This document shows, piece by piece, positions 8,690 through 27,948 of a DNA stretch of 64,000 nucleotides. A model generated the notes under the pieces. It saw only the letters and a program-made list of their open reading frames with translations. It had not been told where the DNA came from and made no database searches. Each line of letters opens with the position of its first letter. Position 1 is the stretch's first letter. Origin of the DNA: Deltaproteobacteria bacterium (GTDB taxonomy: Bacteria > Myxococcota > Myxococcia > Myxococcales > 40CM-4-68-19); assembly GCA_025358085.1 (NCBI GenBank), contig JANYKT010000159.1:1484-65483 (forward strand), in the 5' to 3' direction. The translations under genes and the position numbers were made by a program.

Positions 8690-8690
8690 A

Positions 8691-10612: not shown

Positions 10613-10647
10613 AACCCGACGCATCGGCGCAGGCAGGCCGGCCGCCG

Positions 10648-12805: not shown

Positions 12806-13082
12806 CCTGCCTTGCCGAGCTCTCTATCTCGAACGGTCATTCAGGCGTCGCCTGGGCGGTGATTCGATTTGATGCGCAATGTCGAAGCATATGAGTCCTC
12901 GACGCCGGGACAGGTGAGCGCGCCGTCGCAGGCATCCCTGCGGTCGACGCCGTACTCATTCTGCGGCGGGACGAGGCGAGCGAGCCGCTGATCGAGCTCG
13001 TCGCCGCCCAGGCTCGTGGCCAAGCGCCCCAGCGCGCCCTTGAGACGGCCGAAGAGGCCGCGCGGGGGCTCAAAGCACGCGA

Positions 13083-13553: not shown

Positions 13554-13628
13554 GGAACCTCCTCGAGACACCTGCAAGGACCATGGAACAAACAAGTGGA
13601 GCATCGACGCCATCATTGATGGTCTCCA

Positions 13629-14042
13629 TCAACAACAAGGCGTGTAGCAGGTGCAGTTTGTGCCAGTGCAACAGGGCTGGGAACCCGGCGTGCAGGTTGA
13701 GTAACAACGACCATTGCACTCGTACAGTCCGCCGCAGCAGACCCTCGCGGTGCAGCCGCCGCCTCCGCCGCCTCCGCCTCCGCCGCAGCAATACACACCT
13801 CCGGCCGAGGGCGCGCTGCAGTTGCCGCTCGGCTTGGTCGTGCAGACGGTCCCGGCGATGCAGGGGCCGTAGCAAACGCCGTCCGAGCCTGCGCACTCGC
13901 CGGTCCCGCACGATCCGGATCCACAGCCGGTGGAGAGCAAAGCGATCGCCGAGAAGCAGAATGCAGCCGCGAGGACGAATCGCACCATCGAGCCCAGCCG
14001 GCGCTGGCCGAGACTCTCAATTTTATTCTTGCCGAATACCAT
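13629..14042 (-). CDS. Cys-rich predicted lipoprotein with Gly10 linker
   Basis: AGGAGG RBS before 14042 (alternative ATG at 13988); lipobox LSTGC; 22 Cys in total; ends YTPCC. Confidence 0.7.
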   Translation of the reverse strand: MVFGKNKIESLGQRRLGSMVRFVLAAAFCFSAIALLSTGCGSGSCGTGECAGSDGVCYGPCIAGTVCTTKPSGNCSAPSAGGVYCCGGGGGGGGGGCTARVCCGGLYECNGRCYSTCTPGSQPCCTGTNCTCYTPCC

Positions 14043-14500
14043 CTTCGGAAGCCCTCCTGGATGCAGAGATACAAATTAGGGCGAAAATTACAAGGGCGCT
14101 CGTGTCGGCGACGCGTGGCAGGCTGCAATGTTCGCTCTTCAGATTCGCCCTCCTCGAGGAGGTCTTCGCGGTCGAGATCCTCCTCTCGGTGATCGAGGAA
14201 GGGCCGGTGGCCCGCAAGATCCTGGGGCCGTCTCGGTCTGCCCTCCGCGCCTCCCGTTCGCGCGCCCGTCGGGGACCCTCCGAATCCAGAGCTACCTCTG
14301 CCTCCCAGACGCCCACGACGTGTTCGCGAGCGCCTGAGTCCCCCTCAACGATTTTCCCCGCAAAAGCCCGCTCCGCTCGCCCGGGCATGGGTCTGCCCTC
14401 TGCGTCGCACTTCGCCCCGCCTGCTGCTGCAGAGCCTGCCCTCTTGAACGCCTTATCCGCACGAAAGCCTTGCGGCGCGGCGACGAATCCGTGCGCGGCG

Positions 14501-14932
14501 TCAGCGGACGACGGTAACAGGCTTCGGGCAAATCTGAACCAGCCGATCGGCGACGCTGCCCAGGAGACCTCGCGCGAGAGCGCCGCGCCCGCGGTGTCCA
14601 ACCACGACCAGATCGTGGCCCTCGCGGCTCGCGAGATCGGCCAGCATCTCCGCCGGCGACCCTGCCAGGATCTGCGTGTCGACGACGACGCCCGGGATCG
14701 TGATCTCGGCGGCGATCGAGTTGAGCACCACCTTTAGACGCGTGGCCGCCTCGCCCTGCCATTGGCTGACCTGCGCCATCAACTCGGGCGCTCCGAGAGC
14801 CTCGGGCAGATCGACGACGCCAGCGAGCGTGATTCGCGATCCATGTTCCCTCCCGAGCTGCGCCGCAAACTGCACCGCGTTACGCGATTCCTTCGACCCA
14901 TCAACACCGACCAGAATCCGCTTCATCTGCAT
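14501..14932 (-). CDS. Universal stress protein (UspA family)
   Basis: KRILVGVDGS...GSPAEML...DLVVVGHRGRG...LLGSVADRLV; AGGAGG RBS. Confidence 0.93.
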   Translation of the reverse strand: MQMKRILVGVDGSKESRNAVQFAAQLGREHGSRITLAGVVDLPEALGAPELMAQVSQWQGEAATRLKVVLNSIAAEITIPGVVVDTQILAGSPAEMLADLASREGHDLVVVGHRGRGALARGLLGSVADRLVQICPKPVTVVR

Positions 14933-15185
14933 GACGACCTCCTGCACGCCAGGGCGTGCTCTCTGCCCATGTACGCAATGCGGATGCCATCGTCTCCGCT
15001 CTGGCTTAGCGAGAGCGGGACCCCGACAATGAGCCCGACAATTCCGACGCGCAGGTTCTGCGTCCGCGACTCGTCGCGCCCGCAGGGATTGCGCGGGTGC
15101 ATCCGGCCGACGCCCGGAGCGACGACCCTGATCATCTCGCTGGGCGTCATCACGCGCTGAGCCTCAGGCTGTAGTTACCTGAACT

Positions 15186-15854
15186 CTACTCCCCGGGTGA
15201 GAACTCGATGAGCGTCTCGGCCAGCGGCCGCCGCGTGAGGTCCGGAACGCGGCAGCCTTCGGCGGGATATCCGACCGGCAACAGCAGATAGGCGTGCTCG
15301 CTTTTCGGGCGGCCGAGCAATGTCGCGAGGAACTCCATCGGGCTGGGCGTGTGCGTGAGCGTGACCAACCCTGCGTGGTGGAGCGCGGCGATGAGAAAGC
15401 CGCACGCGATGCCCACTGATTCGCTGACGTAGTAGTGCTTGTGGCCGGTCGCTTCTTCCCAGCGGCGCGAGAAGACGGCAATCAGGGCGGGCGCGACGTC
15501 GAGAAAGTCCTTCTCCGGGCCGGTCTGGAGCGGCGCCAGATCCGCGAGCCACTCGGGCGTCGCGCGCCGCGTATAGAACTCGGTCTCCTCCTTCTCCGCG
15601 GCCACGCGGATGCGGTGCTTCAGCGCAGGATCGGTGACGAGCGCGAACGTCCAGGGCTGCTTGTTCGCGCCCGAGGGCGCCTGCGCCGCGGCCTCGATGC
15701 AGCGCACCAGAACATCGCGCGGAACCGGCTCGCTGCTGAACTCGCGCACCGAGCGGCGCTCGCGCACCTCGTCCAGGAACGAGGCGGCGCGCGCACGCAT
15801 CTCGGCGGGATCGAAGCGGCGAGGCGCGAGGGGTCGGGTCCTGTACTCGGTCAT
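15186..15854 (-). CDS. Nitroreductase family protein, iodotyrosine deiodinase (IYD)-like
   Basis: RRSVREFS, APSGANKQPW, AAEKEETEFY, YYVSESVGIACGFL, LTHTPSPM, LLLPVGYP. Confidence 0.85.
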   Translation of the reverse strand: MTEYRTRPLAPRRFDPAEMRARAASFLDEVRERRSVREFSSEPVPRDVLVRCIEAAAQAPSGANKQPWTFALVTDPALKHRIRVAAEKEETEFYTRRATPEWLADLAPLQTGPEKDFLDVAPALIAVFSRRWEEATGHKHYYVSESVGIACGFLIAALHHAGLVTLTHTPSPMEFLATLLGRPKSEHAYLLLPVGYPAEGCRVPDLTRRPLAETLIEFSPGE

Positions 15855-15902
15855 GGCGGAACACTCCGGGCGGTGGCGCGCCTGGATAGGGCGGAATGGC
15901 GC

Positions 15903-15918
15903 CGCAAAAGAAGCGCCG
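15903..15918 (-). promoter_or_regulatory. Candidate sigma-54 promoter for the nitroreductase
   Basis: Minus strand CGGCGCTTCTTTTGC: GG-N10-GC with TTGC, ~50 bp upstream of the ATG. Confidence 0.4.
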
Positions 15919-16085
15919 TTTGGGACCGGCTCCGTGAAACGTCGGGCCGACGCGGAGTCGTCCGTGCCCATTGGCGACGGGCGGGAAGTGGAGCCTGCAG
16001 ATTGTCTGGCGCTCGCCCGCGCAGAGTTACAAGATCCGCGCGGTGCCTGACAAGTCTTCGATGCGCTGCCTGCGAACGGAGCTGA

Positions 16086-16820
16086 ATGCCGCGGATCAAT
16101 GAGCTTCCGCTCTGGCTGCGCGGCGTCCTGTTCGCGTATCCGTGGCGCCGCATCGATCCAGTGCCGCTCGCGCGCCTGCGCAAGCCGCTCCGGGAGTGCA
16201 GGGTCGCGCTGGTGACCACGGCGGGCCTTGTATCCCCGGGCGAAGAGCCCTTCGACAACGATATCCGCGGTGGCGACGCTTCGTATCGGGTCATCCGGGC
16301 GGATGCTCCGTTGGCGCTGCTCGAGGAACACCACCGCAGCGAGTCGTTCGATCATGCGGGCATCGAGCGCGACCGGAACCTCGCGCTGCCTCTCGATCGG
16401 CTGCGGGAGCTCGTCGCCGGGGGCCTCATCGGTGAGGTCGCGCCCCGGCACTTGTCCTTCATGGGCTCGATCACCGCACCCGGGCGCCTCGTCCGCGACA
16501 CGGCGCCTCCTGCAGCGGCGCTGCTGGAAGCGGACGGAGTGGATGTGGCGCTGCTCTTTCCGGTCTGACCCTTCTGCAACCAGGCGGTCGGCCTGGTCCA
16601 GGCGGAGATCGAGCGGCGCGGCATCGCGACCGCGTCGGTGACCCTCCTGCGGGAGATCACCGAGAAGGTGCACCCGCCGCGCGCGCTGTCCGTGCCGTGG
16701 CCGCTGGGCTTCCCCCTCGGCGCGCCGGACGACGCCCCGCTGCAGCGCAAGGTGCTCCTGCAGTTGCTGGCGCTCCTGCCGCGCGAGGACGTTCCCGTCC
16801 TCGAGGAGTTCGTCCCATGA
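16086..16820 (+). CDS. Selenoprotein B (GrdB/PrdB-like glycine/betaine/sarcosine/D-proline reductase family); Sec at UGA 16566-16568
   Basis: ORF 16086-16568 ([36 protein letters not shown]) continues in frame as [23 protein letters not shown]...[15 protein letters not shown], giving a UxxC motif. SECIS-like hairpin 11 nt after the UGA. Confidence 0.9.
16580..16596 (+). promoter_or_regulatory. Bacterial SECIS element
   Basis: CCAGGC-GGUCG-GCCUGG: 6-bp stem (7 with the flanking A-U pair), GGUC-containing loop, exactly 11 nt after the UGA. This is the geometry of the minimal E. coli fdhF SECIS. Confidence 0.8.
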
Positions 16821-16830
16821 GCCGGCGCGC

Positions 16831-18174
16831 ATGATCGCGCTGGCGCTCGCGCTCTCGGCCGCGGCAGCGCTCCGTTACGAAGTGACCGCGAGCGCGGACG
16901 CCCGTGTTCTCACCGTCGATGCGCAAATCGCCGCCTTCCCCGATCGCAGCGGCGAGCTGAGCGTGAACGGCGGCGCCGAGGAGTTCGTGCGCGACGTCGC
17001 GATGCTCTCCGCGAAGGGTGCGCTGCCACTCGAGCGGCGCGGCGACTCGTGGTTTGCTCCCGGCTGTGCCGCACGCGGTTGTGCGGTCCGCTACAGCTTC
17101 GCGCTGCGCGAAGCAGCCGCCGCGCGCAATGACGACGACGTTGCCGCCCTCCATGGAGACGTCGTCGAGTCGCCGCCCGGCTCCTGGCTCCTGCGCCCCA
17201 TGCATGCGACTGGGAACGCCAAGGCAGAGCTGAGCGTCACCATGCCGGAGGGCCTTCGCTTCGCCGCCGGCCTGCCGCGAGGTCCGCTGACTGTAGACGC
17301 CATCGCCGAGCTGCCCTATGCGGCTTTCGGAAACCTGCGCGTCGAGAAGCTGGACCTCGACGGCGTCTCCGTGACCGTCGCGATCGCCAAAGGGCCGCGA
17401 CGCCAGACCGGGGAGGAATTGCTCTCGTGGCTCCGGGACTCCGCCGCGCTGACCGCAAGCTACTTCGGGCGCTTCCCCACCGCCGGCGCGCTGCTCCTGG
17501 TCCTGCCAGCAATAGGCAGCGAGGTCCACGGCCGGGCCCGCGGGACCTTTGCCGCGTCGATCCTTTTGTTCCTCGGCACCGATCTCGACAATGCCCAGGC
17601 GCGCGCTAGCTGGGAGCTCGTCCACGAGCTCGTTCATCTCGGCTTCCCTTCCTTGCGCCGCGAGCATCATTGGGCAGAGGAGGGTCTCGCGACCTACGTG
17701 GAGCCGATCGCGCGGGCGCGGGCCGGCGAATTGAGCGCTGCAAAAGTGTGGGGCGACCTGGTGCGCGGTCTTCCGCAAGGACTTCCGCAGCCCGGGGACG
17801 AGGGCCTCGACCGGACGCAGACCTGGGGCCGCACCTATTGGGGCGGCGCGCTGTTCTGGTTGCTCGCCGACGTCCAGATCCGCGAGCGCACGGGAAATCG
17901 CCGTGGCCTCGAGCACGCGCTCCGGGCCGTGGTTTCGCACGGCGGCAGCATCGCGGAGAGCTGGCCGCTCCGGCGCGCGCTCGAGGTCGGCGACCGCGCG
18001 GTGGGAACCACGGTCCTTCAGGATCTCTACGCGAAGCTGGGCATGGCCCCCGGGGACGTCGATCTGCAAACGCTCTTCCGCAAGCTCGGTGTCGTGATGA
18101 ACGGAAACTCAGTCGAATTCGACGACCGCGCGCCGATCGCAAATATCCGCCGCGCCATCACCGGGGTGCAATGA
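16831..18174 (+). CDS. Secreted gluzincin-type zinc metallopeptidase (M61/M1-like)
   Basis: Signal peptide; HELVH followed by WAEEGLATY; TYWGGALF. Confidence 0.8.
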
Positions 18175-18186
18175 GCGGAGGCGCCG

Positions 18187-18660
18187 TTGTCGCGCACGCG
18201 CAACGGGTGCACCGCTGCCGCGGCTAGTCTCGAAAGCGGAGAGGGACCGACTGAGCCGTCGAGCAAAGGGGCAGGTTCTCGCCGCAGGATCTGCGGGCGA
18301 GCGCAATCGCTGCGGCCTGGCGCAATCGCTGCGGCCTGGCGCGGCTCCCCGTGTGAGCGAGAGGGTCGAGGCACGTGTCTTGCTCTTGCGATCGGGAACA
18401 TGCTCGCCTCGCTTGCAGCGCTGTCGATGCTGGCGGCTCCGACCGGAGGAACCGGCGGGTTGCTCTGCGTCGATGTTTTTCAAAACCGCGGGATGGGCCC
18501 CGCCTTGTCGTCACGGCTGGTTCAGGTCGGCCGCGACAGGGGCATGGAGCGGATCACCGCGGAAATCGTGCGCCGCAACGAACCGATGCAGAGACTTTGC
18601 CGCAAGCTCGGGTTCGAGCTGCACGCTTCCGAGAGGGTCCGCGCGGTCAAGACGCTCTGA
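18187..18660 (+). pseudogene. Degraded GNAT acetyltransferase domain
   Basis: C-terminal DVFQNRGMG...GRDRGMERITAEIVRRNEPMQRLCRKLGF is GNAT motif A/B. The upstream part is scrambled and includes a 19-bp tandem duplication (GCGCAATCGCTGCGGCCTG, 18301-18338). Confidence 0.6.
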
Positions 18661-18684
18661 GCTGTCTCGAAAAGGAGGCGAACC

Positions 18685-19989
18685 TTGCAGATCGACATGC
18701 GCTACGGAAAATCGGCGCTGCGCGTCCACCTTCCGGACGAACTGGCGGTGAACCTCATCCGCAAGCCGCCGATGCCGGTGGCGAACGATCCGCGGAGGGC
18801 CGTCCTCGATGCGCTGGCTCACCCCGTCGCGGCACGGTCCGTTCGCGAGGAGGCCCGGGGGAAGACGAGCGCGTGCATCCTCATCTGCGACATCACCCGG
18901 CCGGTGCCCAATGGACTGTTGCTGCAGCCGATCATCCGCGAGCTGATCGAGGGTGGGATCGATCGCGCGCGGGTGACTGTGCTGGTCGCCACCGGACTGC
19001 ACCGGCCGAATATCGGTGCTGAGCTGGAGGAGCTGATCGGGGACCCGTGGGTGCTTCAGTCCGTGAGGGTCGTGAATCACGACGCGCGCAGCGACGCGGA
19101 TCACATGGACCTGGGGTTCACTTCCCACGGAACGCCAGTCAAGCTCGATCGCCGCTTCGTCGAGGCCGATCTCAAGATCGTCACCGGTCTGGTCGAGCCG
19201 CACTTCATGGCCGGCTATTCCGGAGGCCGCAAGGTGATCGCCCCCGGTATCGCGCACAAGGACACGATCACGACCTTCCACAGCGCGCGCTTCATGGCCG
19301 ACCCAAACGCGGAGAACTGCGTGCTCGAGGGAAATCCTCTTCACCGCGAGCAGCTCGAGATCGCGGCGATGCTCGGCCGCGTGCTCGCGGTGAATACCGT
19401 CATCGACGAGGACCGCCGCCTGTCATTCGTGAACTATGGCGAGGTCATCGAGAGCCACCTGCAGGCGGTGGCGTTCGTCGAAGGGTATGTCCGGGTCCCG
19501 GTTCCCCGGCGCTACCGGACCGTGCTGACCAGCGCCGCGGGATATCCGCTGGACAAGACCTATTACCAGACGGTCAAGGGAATGGTCTCGCCGATCGATG
19601 TCGTTGAACCCGGGGGTAACCTGATCATCGTTTCGGAATGTTCGGAGGGAATGGGGTCGCCCGAGTTCGTCGCGTCGCAGAGAAAGCTCCTCGCCCTCGG
19701 CTCCGATGGTTTTTTGCGAGACATCGAGAAGAAGCGGTTCGCCGGTGTCGATGAGTGGGAAACGCAGATGCAGCTCAAGGCGATGCGCTCCTGCCGCATC
19801 CAGCTCTATGCCGGCGGTCTCTCCCCCGCGGACCGCGAGCTGACTGGCGTTGGCGCGATCGACTCGGTGGAGGAAGCGGTGTTGGCGAGCGTTCGTGAGA
19901 CCGGTGACGCGAACGTCGCCGTCATTCCAGAAGGACCGTATGTCGTGCCGATGATTCGCTCCTCCGCGCAGCGGAGGGATCCGCGGTGA
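18685..19989 (+). CDS. larA: Nickel-pincer lactate racemase family protein (LarA)
   Basis: ICDITRPVPN, ATGLHRPN, VEPHFMAGYSGGRK, GYPLDKTYYQTVKGM. Confidence 0.88.
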   Translation: MQIDMRYGKSALRVHLPDELAVNLIRKPPMPVANDPRRAVLDALAHPVAARSVREEARGKTSACILICDITRPVPNGLLLQPIIRELIEGGIDRARVTVLVATGLHRPNIGAELEELIGDPWVLQSVRVVNHDARSDADHMDLGFTSHGTPVKLDRRFVEADLKIVTGLVEPHFMAGYSGGRKVIAPGIAHKDTITTFHSARFMADPNAENCVLEGNPLHREQLEIAAMLGRVLAVNTVIDEDRRLSFVNYGEVIESHLQAVAFVEGYVRVPVPRRYRTVLTSAAGYPLDKTYYQTVKGMVSPIDVVEPGGNLIIVSECSEGMGSPEFVASQRKLLALGSDGFLRDIEKKRFAGVDEWETQMQLKAMRSCRIQLYAGGLSPADRELTGVGAIDSVEEAVLASVRETGDANVAVIPEGPYVVPMIRSSAQRRDPR

Positions 19990-20100
19990 AGAAGGCGATG
20001 CAGGCCGTGCCTCAATTCACCGTCCGCACGGTGCCGGCTCCCGCCGTGGCCAAGGTGATCGCGGCATAGCCGTCCGCATGGGTTTCCAAGCGCTACGAAG

Positions 20101-21987
20101 TTGGCGCTCGAGGTGGCCGTGGCGAATCGCGCGAGAGGGCGCATCGGGTTCGTCGCCGGGGCACTGCTCGCGGGCGGTTCCGCCGCCATTGCCGGGGCCG
20201 TCGCCGGAGCGCTGCTCTCCGGCAACCTCGCCATGGCTGCCCCCGGCCGCCCCGGGCCCGACGCCTGCCTGGGCTGCCACTCCAGCGTCACGGGGCTCGA
20301 GCACGGCCACGACCCGGCGGTGATTGGCTGCTCCGCGTGTCACGGTGGGCGCCCGGGCGCGACGACCGCCGTCGAGGCACACAAAGGGCTCGTGCGCGTC
20401 CCCGGCAACCTCGCCGACCTGCCGCGGACGTGCGCTTCTTCGGAGTGCCACGCGCAGGAGGGCAAGCGCCTCGGCAACTCCCTGATGGCGACGATGGCCG
20501 GGGTGGTGGCCGTCGACCGCTGGGTGTTCGGCGAGGCGAGGCGCCCCGGAGGCGCAAACCCGGTCACCGCGCTTGGGCAATCGAAGGCCGACAACCACCT
20601 GCGAAATCTCTGCGCCTCGTGCCACCTCGGCAACCCGAAGGTCGATTGGGGCCCCATCGGGGAAATGTCGCGGGGCGGGGGCTGCCTTGCCTGCCACCTC
20701 GTCTACAGGCAGGACGCGGACAAAGCGCTCGCGAGCTACCGCGCCGCTCCCGCTGCAGGCTTTCGCGCGACGGTCCATCCAGCACTCTCTTCGCACGTCG
20801 ACGACACGCACTGCTTCGGCTGCCACTCGCGCAGCGGCCGCATCTCGCTGAACTACACCGGCTGGCGCGAAGCCTCCGCTGATGGCCTGCCGCCCGCTTC
20901 GACGCCAAAGCGCATTCTCGCGGACGGACGGACCGTCTATGCGGCGCCGGCCGACGTCCATTCCGAGGCGGGCATGAGTTGCGCCGACTGCCACACGCTG
21001 CGCGAGGTGATGGGCGACGGCGTGCGCCACGAGCACGAGGAACAACAATCGGTCGTGGCCTGCGACGACTGCCACCGGCGCGCAGGGGGGATCGGAGGAG
21101 CCAACTCCTCCGGCAACGGGCGAAGCCCGGGCGGAGCATCGATCGCGCTGCGTGGAAACGAGCGCTTCAGCGGGGTCTTGACGGTCGCGGACGGGCGCGA
21201 AGCGCTGCGGCATACGCTGGTGCGAGACGGAGCCGTGTTCGTCGTGCCGGCCGGCTCGAAGCGCGAGCTGCGGGTCCGGCCCCAAGCCGCCGCCTGCGCG
21301 AGAGGGCGAGCCCACGAGAACGTCGCGTGTACCGCGTGCCACGACGCCTGGGCTCCGACCTGCCTCAGCTGCCATACGACCTACGACCCCGGGGGGCGGA
21401 TGGTCGACTTGCTGTCCAACCGCGAGGCCCGCGGCGAGTGGCACGAATCGGGTGGCGCCATGCTCGCGGAGCCGGCTTCTCTCGGCGTGCGGGTCGGCCC
21501 GGGAGGCAAGCGGCGGGTGCAGGAGTTCGTGCCCGGGATGATCCTCACCATCGATCGCGGCGCCCACGAAGCGCCGCTCTTCCGACGGCTCTTCGCGCCG
21601 ACCTCTCCGCACACGATCCGCCGCGAAGCGCGCTCGTGCGCGGGGTGTCATTCGGACCCGGTCGCGCTCGGGTACGGCCGTGGCAAGCTCGACCTCCGCG
21701 TCACCGGCGGCGCGGCGCGCTGGACGTTCGCGCCCGCGCGGCCCCGGGTGGAGGCGGACGGACTTCCCGAGGACGCCTGGCTGGGCTTTCTCGGCGCGCG
21801 CGGCGTGGAGGCGACGACCCGGGAAGACGCGCGACCCTTCACTCCCGAAGAGCAGCGACGCGTGCTGACCGTTGGAGCGTGCCTGTCCTGTCACGACGGT
21901 GCCAGCGGGGTGATGCTCGCGGCGCAGGAAGACTTCGCGGCAACGCTGGCGCGGCGCTCGAGCCGGTGCGTGGTCCCGACTTTCTAG
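20101..21987 (+). CDS. Multiheme c-type cytochrome (11 CxxCH + 1 CX4CH)
   Basis: CLGCH, CSACH, CASSECH, CASCH, CLACH, CFGCH, CADCH, CDDCH, CTACH, CLSCH, CAGCH, CLSCH; hydrophobic N-terminus; start uncertain. Confidence 0.9.
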   Translation: MALEVAVANRARGRIGFVAGALLAGGSAAIAGAVAGALLSGNLAMAAPGRPGPDACLGCHSSVTGLEHGHDPAVIGCSACHGGRPGATTAVEAHKGLVRVPGNLADLPRTCASSECHAQEGKRLGNSLMATMAGVVAVDRWVFGEARRPGGANPVTALGQSKADNHLRNLCASCHLGNPKVDWGPIGEMSRGGGCLACHLVYRQDADKALASYRAAPAAGFRATVHPALSSHVDDTHCFGCHSRSGRISLNYTGWREASADGLPPASTPKRILADGRTVYAAPADVHSEAGMSCADCHTLREVMGDGVRHEHEEQQSVVACDDCHRRAGGIGGANSSGNGRSPGGASIALRGNERFSGVLTVADGREALRHTLVRDGAVFVVPAGSKRELRVRPQAAACARGRAHENVACTACHDAWAPTCLSCHTTYDPGGRMVDLLSNREARGEWHESGGAMLAEPASLGVRVGPGGKRRVQEFVPGMILTIDRGAHEAPLFRRLFAPTSPHTIRREARSCAGCHSDPVALGYGRGKLDLRVTGGAARWTFAPARPRVEADGLPEDAWLGFLGARGVEATTREDARPFTPEEQRRVLTVGACLSCHDGASGVMLAAQEDFAATLARRSSRCVVPTF

Positions 21988-22234: not shown

Positions 22235-23560
22235 TCAGCATCCCTCCTTCTTCTTCGCCCCCGAAGCCGACGGAGCGGCCGGTGCAACTGGCGCAGGTGG
22301 CGTAACGACTTGCGGCGGCGGCGTTGCGATTTGCCGGGGCGACGCAACCTGCGTCGGCGCGACTTGAGCGGCGGGCGACACCCCGGGCGTCAGGCCCAGC
22401 GCCGCCGCCGCCAGGGGAATTCGCGCAGCCCCGCCAAAGTGCGCCGCGATCGCGCGCTCGCGCTCCGCCTCGAGACGCGCGACCTCGTCCTTTGGCTCGG
22501 GCAAGGTGGGCGACAGCACCTGCTCGCGCCATCCCGCATAGCCGCCGGCGAGCGTGGACACGCGCGGGAAGCCGCGCGCCTTGAGATAGAGCCACGCCTG
22601 CGCAGCACGCTCGCCGTCTTCGCTGTAGAGGAGGACGGGCTCGGTCGGCGTCCAGAGGGCGGCCGGCAGCGCGGTCATCGACACATTCTCGGCGCCGGGA
22701 ATGTGGTCTTTCAAGTAGGCCTCGGGAGACCGCAGGTCGATCAGCCGGTATTCATTGGTGCCTGCGATCAGGCGATCGGCGAGAGTGGCAGGCGAGACGT
22801 GGTCCGCGCCGGTGGCCGCCGTGCGACCGAGAGCGTTCCCGTCCAACGTGACCCGCGGGCCTCGGTAGGGCGAACCCGCGAGCGCGGCGACAAAGGCGAG
22901 GCCCAGGAGTCCGAGGAACAGGCCCCAGGTGCGCGTCAGCTTGTGCACCCCGAACAACGACTGCTCCGCGAGGGCGCGTCCGCCGCTCTTCACCTCGCCC
23001 CACTCCGCGGCGACGAAGGCAACGATGGCCATCACCACGACCAGTGCGACGATGACGCCGTACGGGATCCCGGAAAGCCCGGGAAGCGTCGCCGGCCCGA
23101 GTGCGTTGGCGTTTACCCAGCCTTCGAGCGACGGCCAGGCGAAGCCGACCGCGCCCATGCCGGAGACCATGCCCATGAGGTACACCATCGCGTCGATGCG
23201 GCCGGTCGCCGCCGCGACGACCGAGGTTCCGGGGCAGTAGCCGCCGATGACGAACCCGATGCCCAGGAGCAATCCCCCCACCATGTTCGCCAGGGGCCTG
23301 GTCGGGACGAGGTAGACGAGAGAGAGGTCGAGGAACCCGACGCGCGAGAGCCAGTAGACGCCGACCATGGCGGTGATGATGCCGGTGAACATGACCTTCA
23401 GCACCGCCATGTCCTTGAAGTAGAACTGCGCGGCGAGCTTGCGTCCGCTGCCGAAGCCGCCGCGCTCGAGGAAGAAGCCGAAGGCAATGCCGATGGCGAA
23501 CGCCACCACGAGCGAGGTGTCGTCGCCGAAGAGGCCGTACTTGAAGAAGGGGGCATTCAT
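22235..23560 (-). CDS. YeeE/YedE thiosulfate-transporter domain fused to a rhodanese-like domain
   Basis: GIAFGFFLERGGF, GYCPGTS, then LIDLRSPEAYLKDHIPGAENV...LAGGYAGW; Pro/Ala tail ending KKKEGC. Confidence 0.88.
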   Translation of the reverse strand: MNAPFFKYGLFGDDTSLVVAFAIGIAFGFFLERGGFGSGRKLAAQFYFKDMAVLKVMFTGIITAMVGVYWLSRVGFLDLSLVYLVPTRPLANMVGGLLLGIGFVIGGYCPGTSVVAAATGRIDAMVYLMGMVSGMGAVGFAWPSLEGWVNANALGPATLPGLSGIPYGVIVALVVVMAIVAFVAAEWGEVKSGGRALAEQSLFGVHKLTRTWGLFLGLLGLAFVAALAGSPYRGPRVTLDGNALGRTAATGADHVSPATLADRLIAGTNEYRLIDLRSPEAYLKDHIPGAENVSMTALPAALWTPTEPVLLYSEDGERAAQAWLYLKARGFPRVSTLAGGYAGWREQVLSPTLPEPKDEVARLEAERERAIAAHFGGAARIPLAAAALGLTPGVSPAAQVAPTQVASPRQIATPPPQVVTPPAPVAPAAPSASGAKKKEGC

Positions 23561-23570
23561 GGCGAGCCTC

Positions 23571-24092
23571 TCAGGTCCACTGCTTGCGGACGAAATAGGC
23601 GATGCCGTAGGCGCCGGCGAACATCGTGCCCATGAAGAGCCAGCTCCCGGCGTTGAGCAGCGCGCCGCCGGTGAGACCCTGGCCACTGGTGCAGCCGCCG
23701 GCGATCTTCGCGCCGAAGGCCATGATCGCGCCGCCGCCAAAGGCGAAGACAAGGCGCTTGGCGTTCGTCCACCGCGGCCCGTGCTCGATGGTGAGGCGGG
23801 TCCGATTCGCCAGCAGGCCAGAGACGAGCCCGCCGAGGAAGACCCCCATGACCTCGAAGACGAGCCACTCCTTGAACGGGTTCCCGGTCGCGTAGTCGGC
23901 GAAGTAGGCGTGGTGCTTCGCGAACTCGGGCGCGACGGCGGAGACGCCCGCGCCGGCGAACGCCGCGAACGCGCTCGACGCGCCCAGCCCGCGGCCCATG
24001 AAGACGAAGGCGGCCAGGAGCGCGAGCCCGACGCCGAATCCGGCCAGGTAGGGATTCCAGTACGGCTGCGGTGCGTGGGTATTGTTCGACAT
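23571..24092 (-). CDS. YeeE/YedE family thiosulfate transporter subunit
   Basis: YWNPYLAG, GRGLGAS, GAKIAGGCTSGQGLTG. Confidence 0.9.
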   Translation of the reverse strand: MSNNTHAPQPYWNPYLAGFGVGLALLAAFVFMGRGLGASSAFAAFAGAGVSAVAPEFAKHHAYFADYATGNPFKEWLVFEVMGVFLGGLVSGLLANRTRLTIEHGPRWTNAKRLVFAFGGGAIMAFGAKIAGGCTSGQGLTGGALLNAGSWLFMGTMFAGAYGIAYFVRKQWT

Positions 24093-24103: not shown

Positions 24104-25117
24104 TCACCAATGGCTGCCTTGGCCGGCCCCGACGACGATGAAGCGCAGGAAGAAGCCGCCGAACAGCACCAGGAGCGGTGGGATCACCGTGTGTCGTATC
24201 CGTCCGATGAACTCGAAGTGTTGCAACACGAGCGGGGCGACGAGCCCGGTCAGCACCACGAGCGACCAGAACTGGGGCGCCCACGCGCCCGACAACAGCA
24301 GCGCCGCGGCGGCCCGGTGCGCGGTCGTGGAGGTGAGGAGGCCAATCATCCAGAGCCCGATCAACGCCAGCTCGATGGTCATGAACGACTGGTCGTAGCG
24401 GACCATCGAGCTCTTTCCGGTGTCCTTGTTCAGCAGGCGGACCAGACCCGACAGGAGAAGGTCGCCGAAGCTGTCCTGCTTCGCGTTCGCCCCGACCATC
24501 GACAGGAGGTGGAGCACCGCCGCCGCGGTGGACATGCCGCTGATGAGAAAGAGCGGCCCGAGGATGGCGCTGTTCCACAGCGGCCGCGCGCCGAGCGTCC
24601 CGAGGAGGACGCCGGTGTAAAGGCCCAGCGCCGCGCCGCCGGCGAGGTTGGCAATGCCGATCCCCTGCACCAGACGCGGGCGCGCGTGGACCCACTCGGA
24701 CCAGGCGCGCACGCGCGCGAGCGGCGCGTTGCCGAACGGGACCCGCTCGGGCGGGTACAGAAGCGCGGCCGCCAGCATCGCCGGGTAGACGAGGAGCAGG
24801 ATCCACGCGCCCCAGGACATGGGCGAGGTCGGCTGGAAGGTCAGGTACAGCCGCCCTACGGAGAGCTTATGGCCGAGGTCGAGGAACAAGGCACCCATGC
24901 CGAGCGACAGCAGCAGAACGCCGAGCAGCGGCCCCCACGGGTAGCTCTCGCCGGCCTGCCGGCGCGGGCTCTTCAGCACCCGGTAGCCGCCGAGGATGAG
25001 CGATCCCGCGACGAGGCCGCCGAGGAACAGGTAGACCGCGATCTCCCAGCCCCAGGCGTTGAGGAGCGGGTCGATTCCGGGGTTGTGCCGATTGCTGGTG
25101 AGCTCGAGCACGGTCAT
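24104..25117 (-). CDS. psrC: Polysulfide/thiosulfate reductase membrane subunit (NrfD/PsrC family)
   Basis: WGWEIAVYLFLGGL, LFLDLG, SPMSWGAWIL, YTGVLLG...RPLWNS; multiple TM segments. Confidence 0.88.
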   Translation of the reverse strand: MTVLELTSNRHNPGIDPLLNAWGWEIAVYLFLGGLVAGSLILGGYRVLKSPRRQAGESYPWGPLLGVLLLSLGMGALFLDLGHKLSVGRLYLTFQPTSPMSWGAWILLLVYPAMLAAALLYPPERVPFGNAPLARVRAWSEWVHARPRLVQGIGIANLAGGAALGLYTGVLLGTLGARPLWNSAILGPLFLISGMSTAAAVLHLLSMVGANAKQDSFGDLLLSGLVRLLNKDTGKSSMVRYDQSFMTIELALIGLWMIGLLTSTTAHRAAAALLLSGAWAPQFWSLVVLTGLVAPLVLQHFEFIGRIRHTVIPPLLVLFGGFFLRFIVVGAGQGSHW

Positions 25118-25662
25118 TACCGGCCTCGCGTCAGGTAGAACACGTTGGGTTGCGTCCCCGCCTCGGGGGTGAGGACGTGGTACGGCCTGGAGCGCACGAG
25201 CTGCGTGACCTCACTCTCGGGATCGTCGAGATCGCCGAAGTGCATGCAGTGGGTCGGGCACACCGCCACGCACGCCGGCAGCAGCCCCTTCTCGACCCGG
25301 TGGATGCAGAAGGTGCACTTGTCGGCGTAGCCGTCCGGGTGCGAAAAGCGCGCGTCATAGGGGCACGCTTCGATGCACGCCTTGCAGCCGATGCACTTCC
25401 CGTGATCGACGAGCACCACGCCGCCTTCGTGCACGTGGCTCGCGCCGGTGGGGCAGCAGCTGACGCAGGGCGGGCTCGAGCAGTGGTTGCACCGCGACGA
25501 GTGGATGGTCAGCTGCACGGTGGGGAAGGTTCCGCGAACCTCTTCCTCGATCCAGTCGCGGCAGAAGCCTTCGGGGACATCGTTCTCGGTCTTGCACGCG
25601 ACCACGCAGTCGGAGCAGCCGACGCAGAGTGCGGTGTCGATGACCATTGCGAAGCGTGCCAT
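25117..25662 (-). CDS. psrB: 4Fe-4S dicluster electron-transfer subunit (PsrB/PhsB/NrfC)
   Basis: CVGCSDCVVAC, CNHCSSPPCVSCCP, CIGCKACIEACP, KCTFC...CVAVCP. Confidence 0.92.
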   Translation of the reverse strand: MARFAMVIDTALCVGCSDCVVACKTENDVPEGFCRDWIEEEVRGTFPTVQLTIHSSRCNHCSSPPCVSCCPTGASHVHEGGVVLVDHGKCIGCKACIEACPYDARFSHPDGYADKCTFCIHRVEKGLLPACVAVCPTHCMHFGDLDDPESEVTQLVRSRPYHVLTPEAGTQPNVFYLTRGR

Positions 25663-25670: not shown

Positions 25671-27881
25671 TCAGACCGGGACGACGGAAACGAAGTTGTC
25701 GTTGAGGCCGGTGCCGCCCATCAACGGATCGACCTTGATGCGGGTCAGAAGCTGCACGTCGCTCGCCCCTTTGTGGAAGGCGCGCGTCAGACCCTTCGCG
25801 GTGTGGCCGAAGCCGTGGACCATGAAGACACAGTCGGCGCGGATACGCTCGGTGGCTTTGAGCAGGATAGGTAGGCTCTCGATGCCCTCCTGGTTGCGCA
25901 GCTTCACCCGATCGCCCGAGCGCAGGCCGAGGCGGCTGGCCTCGCCGGCGTTCAGCCACAGCTCGTTCTCCGGCATCACGTCGTGCAGGATCGGATTGGT
26001 CTGGGTGCGGCCGAACGAGTGCACCGGCGCGCGGCCGAAGAGCAGCCGGTACGCGCCCGAAGGACACGGCTCGGGCGGCTCGTAGCGCGGCACCGGATCG
26101 AAGCCCTTCACGCCGGGATGCGCGTCGGCGTGCTGCTGGAGCTGGCTCGACCAGAACTCGATCTTCTTCGACGGCGTCGCGAACTCCGCCGGCGCGCCGT
26201 CCTCGAAGTAGATTGGCTGCTTCTTGCCGAGGACGATGCCGTCGCGCTTCAAGTCGGCGAGGTGGTAGCCGCGCTTCTCGAGGCGCGTCGAGAGGTACTC
26301 CTCGATGTCCTTCCAGGGATAGTAGCGCGCGAGCCCGAGCTTCAGTGCGAGCTCGCGCGCGATCCACCAGTTGGGTTTCTGGTCGTCGGGTGACTCCACC
26401 ACGGGCTGGCGAAGGCCGATGAAGGGTTCGCGGAACAGCTCGACATTGAGATCGTCGTACCGTTCGAGATAGGTGCTCTCCGGCAAAACGATATCAGCCC
26501 AGCCGGCGGTCTCGGACGGAATCACGTCCACCACCGCGAGCAGGTCGAGTTCCTGGATGGCCGCGAGCGTCAGACGCTCGTCGGGCAGCGCCCGCACCAG
26601 GTTGGTCGCGTAGACCATCCAGCCCTTGATTGGGTAGGGCTTGCCGGTGATGGTTGCTTCGCGGATTCCGGTGGTGAGTGCCTCGTAAGCGAAGGGATGG
26701 CGCTGGTCGGGGTTGTCGACCTTGGCCTTGGTCGACTTGGGATAAGGCGGGTACGGGTAACCCGGCAGATCCATCTGGGCCGGGACATAGAAGCCGCCGC
26801 GGCGCCCCCACGAACCGAGCAGCGCGTTGAGCAGCGCGACCGCGCGCGACCGCTGGGTGTCGTGGCCGTACCAGTTGGAGTGCCGCCCGGGGTGCACGAG
26901 CGTCGCCGGACGATGGCGCGCCATCTCGCGCGCGGTCTCGCGGATGATCTCCGGCGCGATGCAGGTCTCGGGATAGGCCCACTCGGGCGTGAACTCCGCC
27001 AGCGAAGCGGCGAAGGGCTCGAAACCGTAGCCGTACTTGCCAACGTACTCGGCGTCGTACAGCTTCTCGGTCACCAGCACGTTCATCCAGGCGAGCAGGA
27101 GCGCGGTGTCGGTGCCGGGCCGGATGGGCAGGTAATGCTTTGCCTTGCTGGCGGCGACCGAGAAGCGTGGATCGACCACGATGATGGTCGCGCCGCTCCC
27201 GACCGCCTGCGCGAACTCCTGCACCTGGGTGTTGTGCATGTTCTCGCCGAGGTGCGAGCCAATCAGCACCAGGCAGCGCGCGTTGGCGATGTCGGTGCGC
27301 TCGGGCGAGCCGGGGTCGTCACCAAAGGTCAGCCGAAAGCCGACGTCGCGCGGACCGCGGCATTGCGCGAACGACGGAGCCGCGATGTTGGTGGTGCCAT
27401 ACGCCTTCAGCGTGTGCTTGAGGAAGTTCCCGCCGAGGCCGTGAGAGAACATCGCCATCGACTCGGGCCCGTGCGCAGCTTTGATCGCCTCGAGCTTCAG
27501 GGCGAGGTAACCGAGCGCGTCGTCCCACGAGACGGCGTTCCATTTCTCTTCGCCGCGAACCCTGGCGCGCAAGAGCGGCCGGCGCAGGCGATCGGGATCA
27601 AAAGTCGCGCCGACGCCGCCGGTGCCGCGGGGACACAGCCGGCCGCGGCTGAGCGGGTCGAGCGGGTTGCCTTCGATCTTCCACAGCTTGCCGTCCCGGA
27701 GGGTCGCGACCGCGCCGCATTTCCAGAAGCACAGATCGCAAAACGTCGGGATGGTACGGAGGCCGCTCTTGGCGAGGGTGGCCGCGCGCGCGCGCTCGCC
27801 GCCGAGGATTGAAGTGAGGCCGGCCGCCGCGAGCGCGCCCGCTCCAATGCCGAGAAACTGCCGCCGGTTCATTGGTACCAT
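25671..27881 (-). CDS. psrA: Tat-exported molybdopterin oxidoreductase, polysulfide/thiosulfate reductase subunit A
   Basis: NRRQFL Tat motif; CDLCFWKC...GRLCPRG; SFAQCRGPR (Cys ligand region); DIVLPESTYLER; HSFGRTQTN. Alternative start at 27872. Confidence 0.9.
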   Translation of the reverse strand: MVPMNRRQFLGIGAGALAAAGLTSILGGERARAATLAKSGLRTIPTFCDLCFWKCGAVATLRDGKLWKIEGNPLDPLSRGRLCPRGTGGVGATFDPDRLRRPLLRARVRGEEKWNAVSWDDALGYLALKLEAIKAAHGPESMAMFSHGLGGNFLKHTLKAYGTTNIAAPSFAQCRGPRDVGFRLTFGDDPGSPERTDIANARCLVLIGSHLGENMHNTQVQEFAQAVGSGATIIVVDPRFSVAASKAKHYLPIRPGTDTALLLAWMNVLVTEKLYDAEYVGKYGYGFEPFAASLAEFTPEWAYPETCIAPEIIRETAREMARHRPATLVHPGRHSNWYGHDTQRSRAVALLNALLGSWGRRGGFYVPAQMDLPGYPYPPYPKSTKAKVDNPDQRHPFAYEALTTGIREATITGKPYPIKGWMVYATNLVRALPDERLTLAAIQELDLLAVVDVIPSETAGWADIVLPESTYLERYDDLNVELFREPFIGLRQPVVESPDDQKPNWWIARELALKLGLARYYPWKDIEEYLSTRLEKRGYHLADLKRDGIVLGKKQPIYFEDGAPAEFATPSKKIEFWSSQLQQHADAHPGVKGFDPVPRYEPPEPCPSGAYRLLFGRAPVHSFGRTQTNPILHDVMPENELWLNAGEASRLGLRSGDRVKLRNQEGIESLPILLKATERIRADCVFMVHGFGHTAKGLTRAFHKGASDVQLLTRIKVDPLMGGTGLNDNFVSVVPV

Positions 27882-27932: not shown

Positions 27933-27948
27933 TGCAAGGCGCGTACCG
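27933..27948 (-). promoter_or_regulatory. Sigma-54 (-24/-12) promoter for the psr operon
   Basis: Minus strand CGGTACGCGCCTTGCA matches TGGCACG-N4-TTGCA with correct GG-N10-GC spacing, ~50 bp before psrA. Confidence 0.65.

What the first reader, a model, noticed from the sequence alone, without database searches (positions are those of the whole stretch)
22235..23560. YeeE-rhodanese fusion whose catalytic Cys is lost but which ends in a tethered ...KKKEGC
Seen: the rhodanese active-site loop reads LLYSEDGERA, with Ser where YC is expected. A ~60-residue Pro/Ala linker then ends in a C-terminal Cys. The YeeE part keeps GYCPG, and the partner YeeE keeps GGCTSG. Established: YeeE/YedE transport thiosulfate via Cys relays, and SoxY carries sulfur on a flexible C-terminal Cys arm. 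Inference: a swinging-arm persulfide (or selenium) carrier delivering substrate between transporter and reductase. This would be an undescribed sulfur-relay design.
Basis: partly seen in the sequence, partly recalled or inferred. Interest (0 to 1): 0.65.

Follow-up and report, generated by a model that had tools for sequence, protein, structure and literature searches.

The report
Cysteine-tipped carrier arm on sulfur channel
One half of a two-piece YeeE-type membrane channel, encoded right after a polysulfide/thiosulfate-type reductase, carries a catalytically dead rhodanese domain on the outer face of the cell membrane, and its floppy tail always ends in Lys-Lys-Lys-Glu-Gly-Cys, which most likely makes it an undescribed arm that carries sulfur to or from the enzyme.

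Summary
Window 22235-23560 (-) encodes 441 aa: a YeeE N-half-type domain with GYCPG, two extra membrane helices, a rhodanese fold with Ser at the catalytic position, a 57-aa Pro/Ala-rich disordered linker, and AKKKEGC-stop.

- **Conservation:** all 119 full-length homologs (46-84% identity, several phyla) end in [KR]n-EGC. None has Cys at the rhodanese catalytic position.
- **True C-terminus:** stop codons after the Cys vary (TGA/TAG/TAA), so there is no selenocysteine read-through.
- **Topology:** homology to the N-out half of the solved YeeE, charge bias, and natural split versions with a signal-anchor all place the rhodanese domain and arm in the periplasm. That is the side of the Tat-exported PsrA.
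- **Synteny:** the order psrA-psrB-psrC-yeeEa-yeeEb/rhodanese holds in 62 of 64 non-redundant complete loci with enough upstream DNA.
- **Tip tracks the enzyme:** a sister clade ends in SoxY-like GGCG(G) and always sits behind an Otr-type octahaem operon (39 loci, no cross-combinations).

Best reading: a membrane-tethered, periplasmic sulfur-carrier arm, or possibly a selenium carrier, serving the reductase and channel. The chemistry and direction of transfer are inferred, not shown. The gene cluster was noted in 2022 with function unknown; I found no description of the arm.

The parts
22235..23560 (-). yeeEb-rhodanese-arm gene (P0001, 441 aa), the gene of the finding
   Evidence: ORF and translation. 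Pfam Sulf_transp plus Rhodanese. 508 homologs at E<=1e-5.
22877..23560 (-). Membrane part, residues 1-228. It holds a YeeE N-half-type repeat pair (TM, short helix, TM, twice) with GYCPG (C109, codon 23234-23236), then TM5 (the H7 equivalent) and an extra TM6 that returns the chain to the periplasm.
   Evidence: Pfam profile positions 1-193 of 310. Aligns to StYeeE 6-127 including C91. AF2 helices 13-33, 39-46, 52-74, 89-106, 110-118, 122-149, 167-191 and 210-228. Charge bias of the loops.
22430..22813 (-). Rhodanese-fold domain plus a packed C-terminal helix (residues about 250-377), predicted periplasmic and catalytically dead
   Evidence: Pfam. pLDDT mostly above 90. Foldseek matches to GlpE, TSTD1 and YgaP rhodaneses.
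22604..22633 (-). Active-site-loop equivalent LLYSEDGERA (residues 310-319). Ser313 (codon 22622-22624) sits where the catalytic Cys should be, and the loop is acidic rather than basic.
   Evidence: Alignment to the 5VE4 C314S structure. Family census S97/A17/G5 at position 313, and D/E in 82 of 119 at position 314.
22259..22429 (-). Disordered Pro/Ala-rich linker, residues 378-434
   Evidence: 51% Pro+Ala. Mean pLDDT per 10-residue block is 35-64 from about residue 381 onward. Length and sequence vary in homologs: 41-104 aa after the rhodanese core.
22238..22258 (-). Invariant tip AKKKEGC-COOH (residues 435-441). C441 is the only Cys outside the membrane part.
   Evidence: Tail logo [KR]-K-K-[KR]-E-G-C in 119 of 119. 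Stop codons vary.
23571..24092 (-). yeeEa (P0270, 173 aa), the C-half-type YeeE partner with GGCTSG (C133)
   Evidence: Translation. Pfam Sulf_transp profile 176-309 of 310. Aligns to StYeeE 229-325 including C293. Present directly upstream in related loci.
24104..25117 (-). psrC/phsC-type NrfD membrane quinol subunit
   Evidence: Pfam NrfD 123 bits. Syntenic in related loci.
25117..25662 (-). psrB/phsB-type 4x[4Fe-4S] subunit (181 aa from the ATG at 25662)
   Evidence: Pfam Fer4_11 and NCBIfam NrfC/TtrB-like hits. Start position.
25671..27881 (-). psrA/phsA-type Mo-bisPGD catalytic subunit with a twin-arginine signal (NRRQFLG)
   Evidence: Pfam and NCBIfam PhsA 485 bits, below the 694 cut-off. 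702 bits to Thermus thermophilus PsrA, 2VPW. N-terminus.
20101..21987 (+). ExtM-like 12-haem-motif c-type cytochrome, convergent with the operon. It is a frequent but not universal neighbour of the module.
   Evidence: NCBIfam ExtM 1e-59, below cut-off. 11 CXXCH plus 1 CX4CH. Found in about 30 of 86 related loci.

Best explanation
P0001 is one subunit of a split, heterodimeric YeeE/YedE-type channel. YeeEa is the C-half type with the periplasm-side Cys. YeeEb is the N-half type with the central Cys.

After its YeeE repeat, YeeEb has two further membrane helices that put the rest of the protein in the periplasm. That part consists of a rhodanese-fold domain that has lost its catalytic Cys and has an acidic loop, a roughly 57-residue disordered Pro/Ala linker, and an invariant polybasic tip ending in Glu-Gly-Cys-COOH.

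The terminal thiol most likely acts as a tethered carrier, like the SoxY or DsrC arm. It would take up sulfane sulfur (persulfide or polysulfide, possibly a thiosulfonate or a selenium adduct). It would then swing between the active-site funnel of the Tat-exported PsrA/PhsA-type molybdoenzyme and the periplasmic mouth of the YeeE channel. At the channel mouth it would extend the C133(YeeEa)-C109(YeeEb) cysteine line outward by one station.

The Lys run would attract anionic sulfur species and lower the thiol pKa. The dead rhodanese domain would serve as a docking or parking module.

Shown here: the anatomy, the conservation, the synteny and the match between tip and reductase type. Inferred: the topology (from homology, charge bias and split forms), all of the chemistry, and the direction of transfer.
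For: 1. **Invariance of the tip next to a freely varying linker.** [KR]n-EGC is present in 119 of 119 homologs and in about 77 non-redundant genome loci from Myxococcota, Acidobacteriota, Verrucomicrobiota, Planctomycetota, Ignavibacteriota/Bacteroidota and others.
2. **It is a true C-terminus.** Stop codons after the Cys are TGA 44, TAG 15 and TAA 18.
3. **Canonical sulfurtransferase chemistry is excluded.** The rhodanese catalytic Cys is absent in 119 of 119. C441 is the only Cys beyond TM6 in 79 of 119.
4. **Periplasmic placement.**
   - P0001 aligns to the N-half of StYeeE, whose N-terminus is outside, while YeeEa aligns to the C-half.
   - Net charge is +2.9 and +1.9 on the predicted cytoplasmic loops, against about 0 or negative on the predicted periplasmic ones, across 119 sequences.
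   - In many Ignavibacteriota/Bacteroidota genomes the gene is naturally split after TM5. The rhodanese-arm protein then starts with a Lys-rich n-region plus one hydrophobic helix, a signal-anchor.
5. **The client enzyme is on that face.** PsrA has a twin-arginine motif.
6. **Tight synteny.** The order psrABC-yeeEa-yeeEb holds in 62 of 64 non-redundant complete loci with enough upstream DNA.
7. **SoxY-like tips in relatives.** Distant relatives (32-45% identity) end in a basic run plus GGC, GGCG or GGCGG, which is the SoxY motif.
8. **Tip matches reductase type.** EGC with PsrABC in 62 loci, GGC(G) with an Otr-like octahaem, 7-haem and cytochrome b operon in 39 loci, and no cross-combinations.
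9. **Linker disorder.** The linker is predicted disordered while the rhodanese domain is confident.
10. **Shifted cysteine line.** The StYeeE C22 position is an invariant Gly here. The internal Cys line has therefore lost its cytoplasmic station while an external Cys is added.
Against: - No biochemical or genetic data exist for any member. I found no paper that describes the arm.
- AF2 gives no confident docking of the tip anywhere.
- The tip-reductase association involves two sequence clades, so shared ancestry could produce it without functional matching.
- The module can persist without adjacent psrAB. In L003/L004, psrAB are gone and psrC is truncated. In L065 the module stands alone, although a PsrA ortholog lies elsewhere in that genome.
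- The model does not explain why a channel is needed for a periplasmic reduction.
- Neighbours in relatives (ArsR-type regulators, TehB-like methyltransferases, RND efflux, an ExtM-like cytochrome) also fit selenite/tellurite or reactive-sulfur stress rather than respiration.
- No dedicated topology predictor or experiment was available.
Confidence: 0.6

Rival explanations
1. Same anatomy, but the cargo is selenium or tellurium. The arm would bind selenite-derived Se as a selenotrisulfide or perselenide. It would feed a PsrA-like selenite reductase (SrrABC-type), or the YedE-like channel for selenium assimilation or detoxification.
For: - NCBIfam's best YeeE-type hits are the YedE selenium-transporter models, though far below cut-off.
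- The neighbouring cytochrome resembles ExtM of the Geobacter selenite/tellurite cluster.
- The only known respiratory selenite reductase, SrrABC, is PsrABC-like and is encoded with two rhodanese-domain proteins.
- Relatives carry ArsR-type regulators, TehB/MetW-like methyltransferases, thioredoxin and RND efflux genes nearby.
- The window's own genome has SelD with an in-frame TGA.
Against: - PsrA is closest to the Thermus polysulfide reductase (702 bits) and to the PhsA model.
- The Geobacter ext cluster enzyme MccSep is now shown to be mainly a polysulfide reductase.
- No Sec-tipped variants were seen.
- ExtM-like genes accompany only about a third of loci.
Confidence: 0.15
2. The tail is not a cargo carrier. 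It would be a regulatory or assembly element instead. One option is a plug or redox gate that forms a disulfide with C133 at the channel mouth. The other is a docking peptide or metal ligand that holds the channel-rhodanese subunit on PsrABC.
For: - A single free Cys in the oxidising periplasm readily forms mixed disulfides.
- The acidic rhodanese loop (D/E at 314/315) and the basic tip could form an intramolecular latch.
- The module persists in loci without adjacent psrAB.
Against: - A long linker of variable length and sequence, with only Gly-Cys and basic residues fixed across 30-80% identity, is the pattern of known carrier arms. The sister clade reproduces SoxY's GGCGG exactly.
- A pure docking motif would not need the thiol to be the last or near-last residue in every clade.
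Confidence: 0.15
3. Cytoplasmic arm. The tethered Cys would replace the missing YeeD/TusA partner and accept thiosulfate or sulfur at the inner mouth of the channel.
For: No yeeD/tusA gene is in the operon. YeeD's Cys is essential for YeeE function in the characterised system (title and abstract of PMC11073785).
Against: - Topology evidence points the other way. P0001 has an N-out half plus an even number (two) of extra helices.
- Split forms carry a signal-anchor.
- The partner enzymes (Tat-exported PsrA, c-type cytochromes) are periplasmic.
Confidence: 0.04

Closest known systems
SoxY of the SoxYZ carrier (periplasmic thiosulfate oxidation)
   Same: Periplasmic protein whose single functional Cys sits at the end of a mobile C-terminal arm in a Gly-Cys context. 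The sister clade of this family ends in GGCG or GGCGG, as SoxY does. Cargo would be handed to partner enzymes.
   Different: There is no SoxY/SoxZ fold (no Pfam hit). The arm is about 57 disordered residues rather than a few. It is membrane-tethered to a channel subunit, has a polybasic EGC tip, and is linked to reductases (PsrABC, Otr-type) rather than to the oxidative Sox enzymes.
Sud, the periplasmic polysulfide-sulfur transferase of Wolinella succinogenes (PDB 1QXN)
   Same: Rhodanese fold (weak sequence match), periplasmic, and genetically and functionally tied to polysulfide reductase. From my own knowledge, it delivers protein-bound polysulfide sulfur to PsrA.
   Different: Sud uses the canonical active-site-loop Cys and is soluble. 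Here that Cys is absent in all members, and the only candidate thiol is at the tail tip of a membrane protein.
YeeE(TsuA)-YeeD(TsuB) thiosulfate uptake system (PDB 6LEO, 8J4C)
   Same: Same channel fold. C109 and C133 correspond to the two essential cysteines, C91 and C293. An accessory Cys protein works at one mouth of the channel.
   Different: The channel is split into two genes in the order C-half then N-half. The C22 position is Gly. There is no YeeD. The accessory Cys is fused and lies on the periplasmic rather than the cytoplasmic side.
PmpAB half-size YeeE/YedE pairs, and the phsABC-pmpAB-sulfurtransferase cluster noted in Ca. Electryonea, Ca. Lernaella and Caldithrix abyssi (PMC9324843; PMC11582611)
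   Same: Very probably the same gene cluster, including a Pmp-sulfurtransferase fusion, with the half-transporter heterodimer idea.
   Different: Those papers state that the function is unknown. They do not mention the loss of the catalytic Cys, the topology or the conserved Cys tip.
DsrC/TusE
   Same: Sulfur carrier with a flexible C-terminal arm bearing a near-terminal Cys that enters a reductase active site (own knowledge).
   Different: It is cytoplasmic, has a different fold and two arm cysteines, and partners DsrAB.
SrrABCDEF respiratory selenite reductase of Bacillus selenitireducens
   Same: PsrABC-like enzyme encoded with rhodanese-domain proteins.
   Different: No YeeE pieces are reported. 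Whether SrrE/F have Cys tails was not tested here.

Membership tests
YeeE/YedE (Pfam PF04143 Sulf_transp) | Profile match above the curated cut-off | tested here: met
   P0001 scores 63.1 bits against a cut-off of 27, profile positions 1-193 of 310. The partner P0270 scores 71.9 bits, profile positions 176-309.
YeeE/YedE (Pfam PF04143 Sulf_transp) | Conserved loop cysteines equivalent to StYeeE C91 and C293 | tested here: met
   C109 aligns with C91 and is present in 119 of 119. C133 of P0270 aligns with C293.
Full-length TsuA/YeeE thiosulfate transporter | Single chain of nine TM helices with three cysteines (C22 included) and a YeeD/TsuB partner | tested here: not met
   The channel is split into two genes. 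The C22 position is an invariant Gly37. The NCBIfam TsuA score is 24 bits against a cut-off of 400. No yeeD is in the operon.
Full-length TsuA/YeeE thiosulfate transporter | Thiosulfate uptake activity | not testable with these tools
   Needs a growth complementation or transport assay.
Rhodanese homology domain (PF00581) | Rhodanese alpha/beta fold | tested here: met
   Pfam 61 bits. The AF2 domain has pLDDT above 90. Foldseek matches GlpE (TM score normalised to target 0.75) and YgaP, among others.
Catalytic rhodanese / sulfurtransferase (including Sud) | Nucleophilic Cys at the start of the active-site loop (C-X4-5-R/T) | tested here: not met
   Ser313 here. The family census is S97/A17/G5 and never Cys. 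The loop is acidic rather than basic.
SoxY | SoxY beta-sandwich fold with a SoxZ partner | tested here: not met
   No SoxY or SoxZ Pfam/NCBIfam hit in P0001 or its neighbours.
SoxY | Carrier Cys in a GGCGG-COOH mobile arm, periplasmic | tested here: inconclusive
   The tip here is EGC-COOH, while GGCG/GGCGG occurs in the sister clade. The periplasmic location is inferred. Covalent cargo has not been tested.
PsrABC/PhsABC (context enzyme) | Tat-exported Mo-bisPGD subunit, four-cluster FeS subunit and NrfD membrane subunit | tested here: met
   Pfam and NCBIfam hits. 702 bits to the Thermus PsrA structure. RRQFLG motif. Substrate specificity has not been tested, and the PhsA model score is below its cut-off.

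The most novel reading that the evidence does not exclude
The physiological substrate of this widespread PsrABC clade would be sulfur, or possibly selenium, held covalently on the terminal cysteine of a membrane-tethered arm, not a free anion. By extension the same would hold for the Otr-type octahaem enzymes linked to the GGCG sister clade. The arm tips would be tuned to each enzyme's active site: EGC for the molybdoenzyme and GGCG for the haem enzyme. The same arm would also hand sulfur into a two-cysteine relay through the split YeeE channel. Together this would be a general 'tethered-substrate' principle for periplasmic sulfur reduction, mirroring SoxY in oxidation.
Probability: 0.18. Interest if true: 0.85.

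Novelty: new variant of a known kind. Interest (0 to 1): 0.62.

Why it matters
- **Substrate delivery to reductases:** polysulfide/thiosulfate reductases and Otr-type octahaem cytochromes are very common in anoxic soils, sediments and groundwater. How poorly soluble or unstable sulfur species reach their buried active sites is only understood for Wolinella Sud, and the physiological substrate of Otr is still debated.
- **A missing counterpart:** a conserved Cys-tipped arm whose tip matches the enzyme type would be the reductive counterpart of SoxY. It gives a concrete, easily mutated handle (one terminal Cys) for testing substrate delivery.
- **Annotation:** these genes are currently called 'rhodanese-related sulfurtransferase' or 'YeeE/YedE thiosulfate transporter'. 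The first name implies an active site that is not there.
- **Channel function:** the arm suggests that split YeeE channels can work with an external rather than an internal cysteine partner.

Tried and rejected
1. **My own frame error.** I first gave the partner gene as 23571-24090, which is out of frame. The 'no family' and 'no PDB hit' results for it, and the first row of alignment A3, are artefacts. They were corrected.
2. **Selenocysteine read-through of the TGA after Cys441.** Rejected. Relatives use TAA and TAG as often as expected, and the Cys codon is always TGC or TGT.
3. **Cytoplasmic YeeD/TusA-replacement model.** Rejected on topology.
4. **Docking of the tip by AF2.** I hoped the model would place the tip in the rhodanese loop or elsewhere. 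The tail has pLDDT 35-53, so nothing can be read from it.
5. **Literature searches.** Six term sets found no description of the arm. Only the 2022 note of the gene cluster turned up.
6. **Contexts of five distant representatives.** Four lay on contigs too short to show the reductase. Only L091 was informative, so I ran the metagenome scan.
7. **Sorting-signal or lipidation readings** (CAAX-like, -CTERM sorting). Set aside because nothing follows the Cys and there is no trailing TM helix. This is reasoning from the sequence, not a test.
8. **Sulfur versus selenium.** The presence of SelD in the genome is uninformative.
Full report
**Observation**

On the minus strand, an ATG at 23560 opens a 441-codon frame that ends with TGC-TGA at 22235-22240.
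- Pfam finds Sulf_transp (YeeE/YedE) over residues 33-228 and Rhodanese over 261-346, both well above their cut-offs.
- The string LLYSEDGERA is residues 310-319.
- In the phmmer alignment to the persulfide dioxygenase-rhodanese fusion, Ser313 lies on the residue that was mutated in the C314S structure 5VE4. That residue is the catalytic cysteine position.
- The protein has two cysteines only: C109 in GYCPG and the C-terminal C441.
- Residues 378-434 are 51% Pro+Ala and are followed by AKKKEGC.
- The upstream gene, at 23571-24092 (-), encodes a 173-aa YeeE-type protein with GGCTSG.

**Conservation**

A search of 5.8 billion clustered proteins gave 508 relatives at E<=1e-5. Every one of the 120 listed proteins ends in EGC, and 119 of them are full-length.
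- In the 119 full-length sequences the last seven positions read [KR]-K-K-[KR]-E-G-C, with E, G and C invariant. The preceding linker varies freely in length and sequence, at 41-104 residues after the rhodanese core.
- The catalytic position is Ser in 97, Ala in 17 and Gly in 5, and never Cys. A Cys one residue earlier occurs in only 37.
- The loop is acidic, with D/E at position 314 in 82 of 119. Sulfur-transferring rhodaneses have a basic loop there.
- The stop codon after the Cys is TGA 44, TAG 15 and TAA 18 among non-redundant loci. The protein therefore really ends at the Cys, and a selenocysteine read-through can be dismissed.

**What the membrane part is**

The two adjacent genes are complementary halves of the YeeE fold.
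- P0270 matches Pfam profile positions 176-309 of 310 and aligns to residues 229-325 of the solved Spirochaeta thermophila YeeE. Its Cys133 lies on the essential C293.
- P0001 matches profile positions 1-193 and aligns to StYeeE 6-127. Its Cys109 lies on the essential C91. The position of the dispensable C22 is a Gly that is invariant in the family.
- The AF2 model (mean pLDDT 82) shows the expected pattern of TM, short helix, TM, twice. It then shows two further long helices, 167-191 and 210-228.

**Topology**

The structure paper states that the StYeeE N-terminus is outside, that H1-H6 are followed by H7 which reverses the topology, and that the C-terminus is inside (PMC7449682).
- By homology, P0001 starts outside. 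It returns outside after four helices, goes in with TM5 (the H7 equivalent) and comes out again with TM6. This places the rhodanese domain and tail in the periplasm.
- The charge distribution over 119 homologs agrees. Net K+R minus D+E is +2.9 and +1.9 for the two loops predicted to be cytoplasmic. It is -1.0, 0.0 and +0.2 for the N-terminus and the two loops predicted to be periplasmic.
- Nature supplies an independent test. In many Ignavibacteriota, Bacteroidota and other genomes the gene is split after TM5. The separate 215-230-aa protein begins with a Lys-rich stretch and one hydrophobic helix (for example MKKFWSNLSLNKKLALIAITLGVIALFAGDPY). It then continues with the Cys-less rhodanese domain, a linker and KKKKEGC. 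Of 37 complete copies, 35 end in EGC and one in QGC. That N-terminus is a signal-anchor or signal peptide.

I had no dedicated topology predictor and no experiment, so the periplasmic placement is a well-supported inference and not a demonstration.

**Context**

- The window operon reads psrA (twin-arginine motif NRRQFLG, 702 bits to Thermus thermophilus PsrA), psrB, psrC (NrfD), yeeEa, then yeeEb-rhodanese-arm. Intergenic gaps are at most 11 bases.
The 80 best come from Myxococcota (an Anaeromyxobacteraceae MAG at 88% identity), Acidobacteriota, Verrucomicrobiota, Planctomycetota, Ignavibacteriota/Bacteroidota, Leptospira and others.
- tblastn with the window proteins shows the same gene order wherever enough upstream DNA is present. 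Of 64 non-redundant complete EGC loci with enough upstream DNA, 62 have PsrABC immediately upstream, and 13 more are too short to tell.
- The two exceptions are informative but do not break the link. In L003/L004, psrAB are lost and psrC is truncated while the channel pair and arm are intact. In L065 the module stands among unrelated genes, but that genome has a 69%-identical PsrA elsewhere.
- A 12-haem-motif cytochrome resembling Geobacter ExtM is next to the module in the window and in roughly a third of the loci.

**The wider family, and a test of who the arm serves**

An exhaustive HMMER search of 1.8 billion representatives found 290 clusters at E<=1e-30.
- Relatives at 32-45% identity still end in a basic run followed by GGC, GGCG, GGCGG, RRGC or REGC. 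GGCGG-COOH is the signature of the SoxY carrier arm.
- I then fetched 80 metagenome loci with a profile of the GGCG-type proteins and scored all loci for neighbouring reductases.
- GGC(G) tips sit behind an operon of an Otr-like octahaem cytochrome (Pfam Cytochrome_cB), a 7-haem cytochrome and a cytochrome b in 39 non-redundant loci. EGC tips sit behind PsrABC in 62. No cross-combination occurs.
- The GGCG clade has also largely lost the catalytic Cys: S16/G7/D3/C2/A1 at that position.
- The channel pair is constant while the tip changes with the enzyme. That is what one expects if the tip is recognised by the reductase. Because the two tips belong to two sequence clades, shared ancestry could give the same table, so this is supportive and not decisive.

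**Mechanism proposed**

The most economical reading is a membrane-tethered, periplasmic carrier arm.
- The terminal thiol, made more acidic and surrounded by anion-attracting lysines, would pick up sulfane sulfur as a persulfide or polysulfide. A thiosulfonate, as on SoxY, is also conceivable.
- The 57-residue disordered linker could span up to about 17 nm at about 0.3 nm per residue, which is my estimate of the upper bound. That would let the tip reach both the PsrA funnel above the membrane and the periplasmic vestibule of the YeeE pair. There C133 and then C109 form the internal cysteine line.
- Compared with the characterised YeeE-YeeD system, the cysteine line has lost its cytoplasmic station (C22 to Gly, and no YeeD) and gained an external one.
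- The Cys-less rhodanese domain is under strong constraint (AF2 pLDDT above 90, many invariant positions). It probably acts as a docking module or as a parking site for the basic tip on its acidic loop. That last point is speculation.
- Still unknown: whether sulfur flows from the environment to the enzyme (a tethered Sud), from the enzyme to the channel, or both. It is also unknown whether the cargo is sulfur or selenium.

**Rivals**

- **Selenium/tellurium version.** It is kept alive by the ExtM-like neighbour, weak YedE-model hits, the precedent of SrrABC with rhodanese proteins, and detoxification-type neighbours in relatives. Against it, PsrA is closest to polysulfide/thiosulfate enzymes, and the Geobacter ext enzyme itself turned out to be mainly a polysulfide reductase.
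- **Non-carrier role** (gate, latch or assembly peptide). It cannot be excluded without biochemistry.
- **Cytoplasmic YeeD-substitute model.** It is contradicted by the topology evidence.

**Comparison with the known, and novelty**

- The protein meets the profile and cysteine criteria of the YeeE/YedE family, but not those of a full-length TsuA transporter.
- It has the rhodanese fold but fails the defining catalytic-Cys test.
- It works like SoxY in concept but is not a SoxY family member.
- The gene cluster phsABC-pmpAB-sulfurtransferase, including a Pmp-sulfurtransferase fusion, was noted in Antarctic-lake MAGs and Caldithrix abyssi with the explicit statement that its function is unclear (PMC9324843). 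The half-transporter heterodimer idea is in PMC11582611.
- I found nothing on the dead active site, the outward topology, the conserved Cys tip or its match to the reductase type.
- Earlier AI notes of this scan describe the same kind of arm in other genomes. I treated them as leads and re-derived the Otr link, the split -EGC form and the literature pointer myself.

I class it as a new variant of a known kind (protein-tethered sulfur carriers). It is real, widespread and testable, and its chemistry is unproven.

Noticed in passing
window about 27933-27948 (-), 51 nt upstream of the psrA ATG: The sequence CGGTACG-N4-TTGCA is close to the sigma-54 -24/-12 consensus (TGGCACG-N4-TTGCW). An Otr-type sister locus (L091) has a sigma-54 activator gene just upstream of its operon.
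   Followed up: partly
window 20101-21987 (+): A 628-aa c-type cytochrome with 11 CXXCH and 1 CX4CH motifs, convergent with the operon. Its best NCBIfam hit is ExtM of the Geobacter selenite/tellurite cluster (1e-59, below cut-off). It recurs beside the module in roughly a third of related loci, and its role is unknown.
   Followed up: partly
window 18685-19989 (+): A LarA-family nickel-pincer racemase homolog (343 bits, below the LarA equivalog cut-off of 460) next to the cytochrome gene. No obvious link to the sulfur module.
   Followed up: no
own genome, G000:C203:11625-12554 (+), locus L090: selD (selenophosphate synthetase) with one in-frame TGA, so the organism very probably makes selenoproteins.
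   Followed up: no
L003 8932-11272 and L004 (Acidobacteriota, GCA_040959955.1): psrA and psrB are absent and psrC is truncated to 174-208 aa, yet yeeEa and the yeeEb-rhodanese-KKKEGC gene are intact beside an RND efflux operon. This is either recent decay or a Psr-independent use of the module.
   Followed up: partly
L093 833-3792: A relative with a short linker ending in LREGC is followed directly by a 577-aa Aminotran_5 (cysteine-desulfurase-like) gene. The contig is too short to see what lies upstream.
   Followed up: no
L001 (Opitutus terrae PB90-1, CP001032.1) 3730-21200: In this cultured strain the operon is embedded in an island. It holds two ArsR/HTH_5 regulators, a FadL/Toluene_X outer-membrane channel directly upstream of psrA, a MOSC-domain protein, YgaP-like TM and DUF6132 small membrane proteins, and an RND efflux system. 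It is a good experimental system.
   Followed up: no
window 15186-16832 (-): A 548-aa ORF with a C-terminal nitroreductase domain (residues 356-522) and a long unannotated N-terminal part.
   Followed up: no
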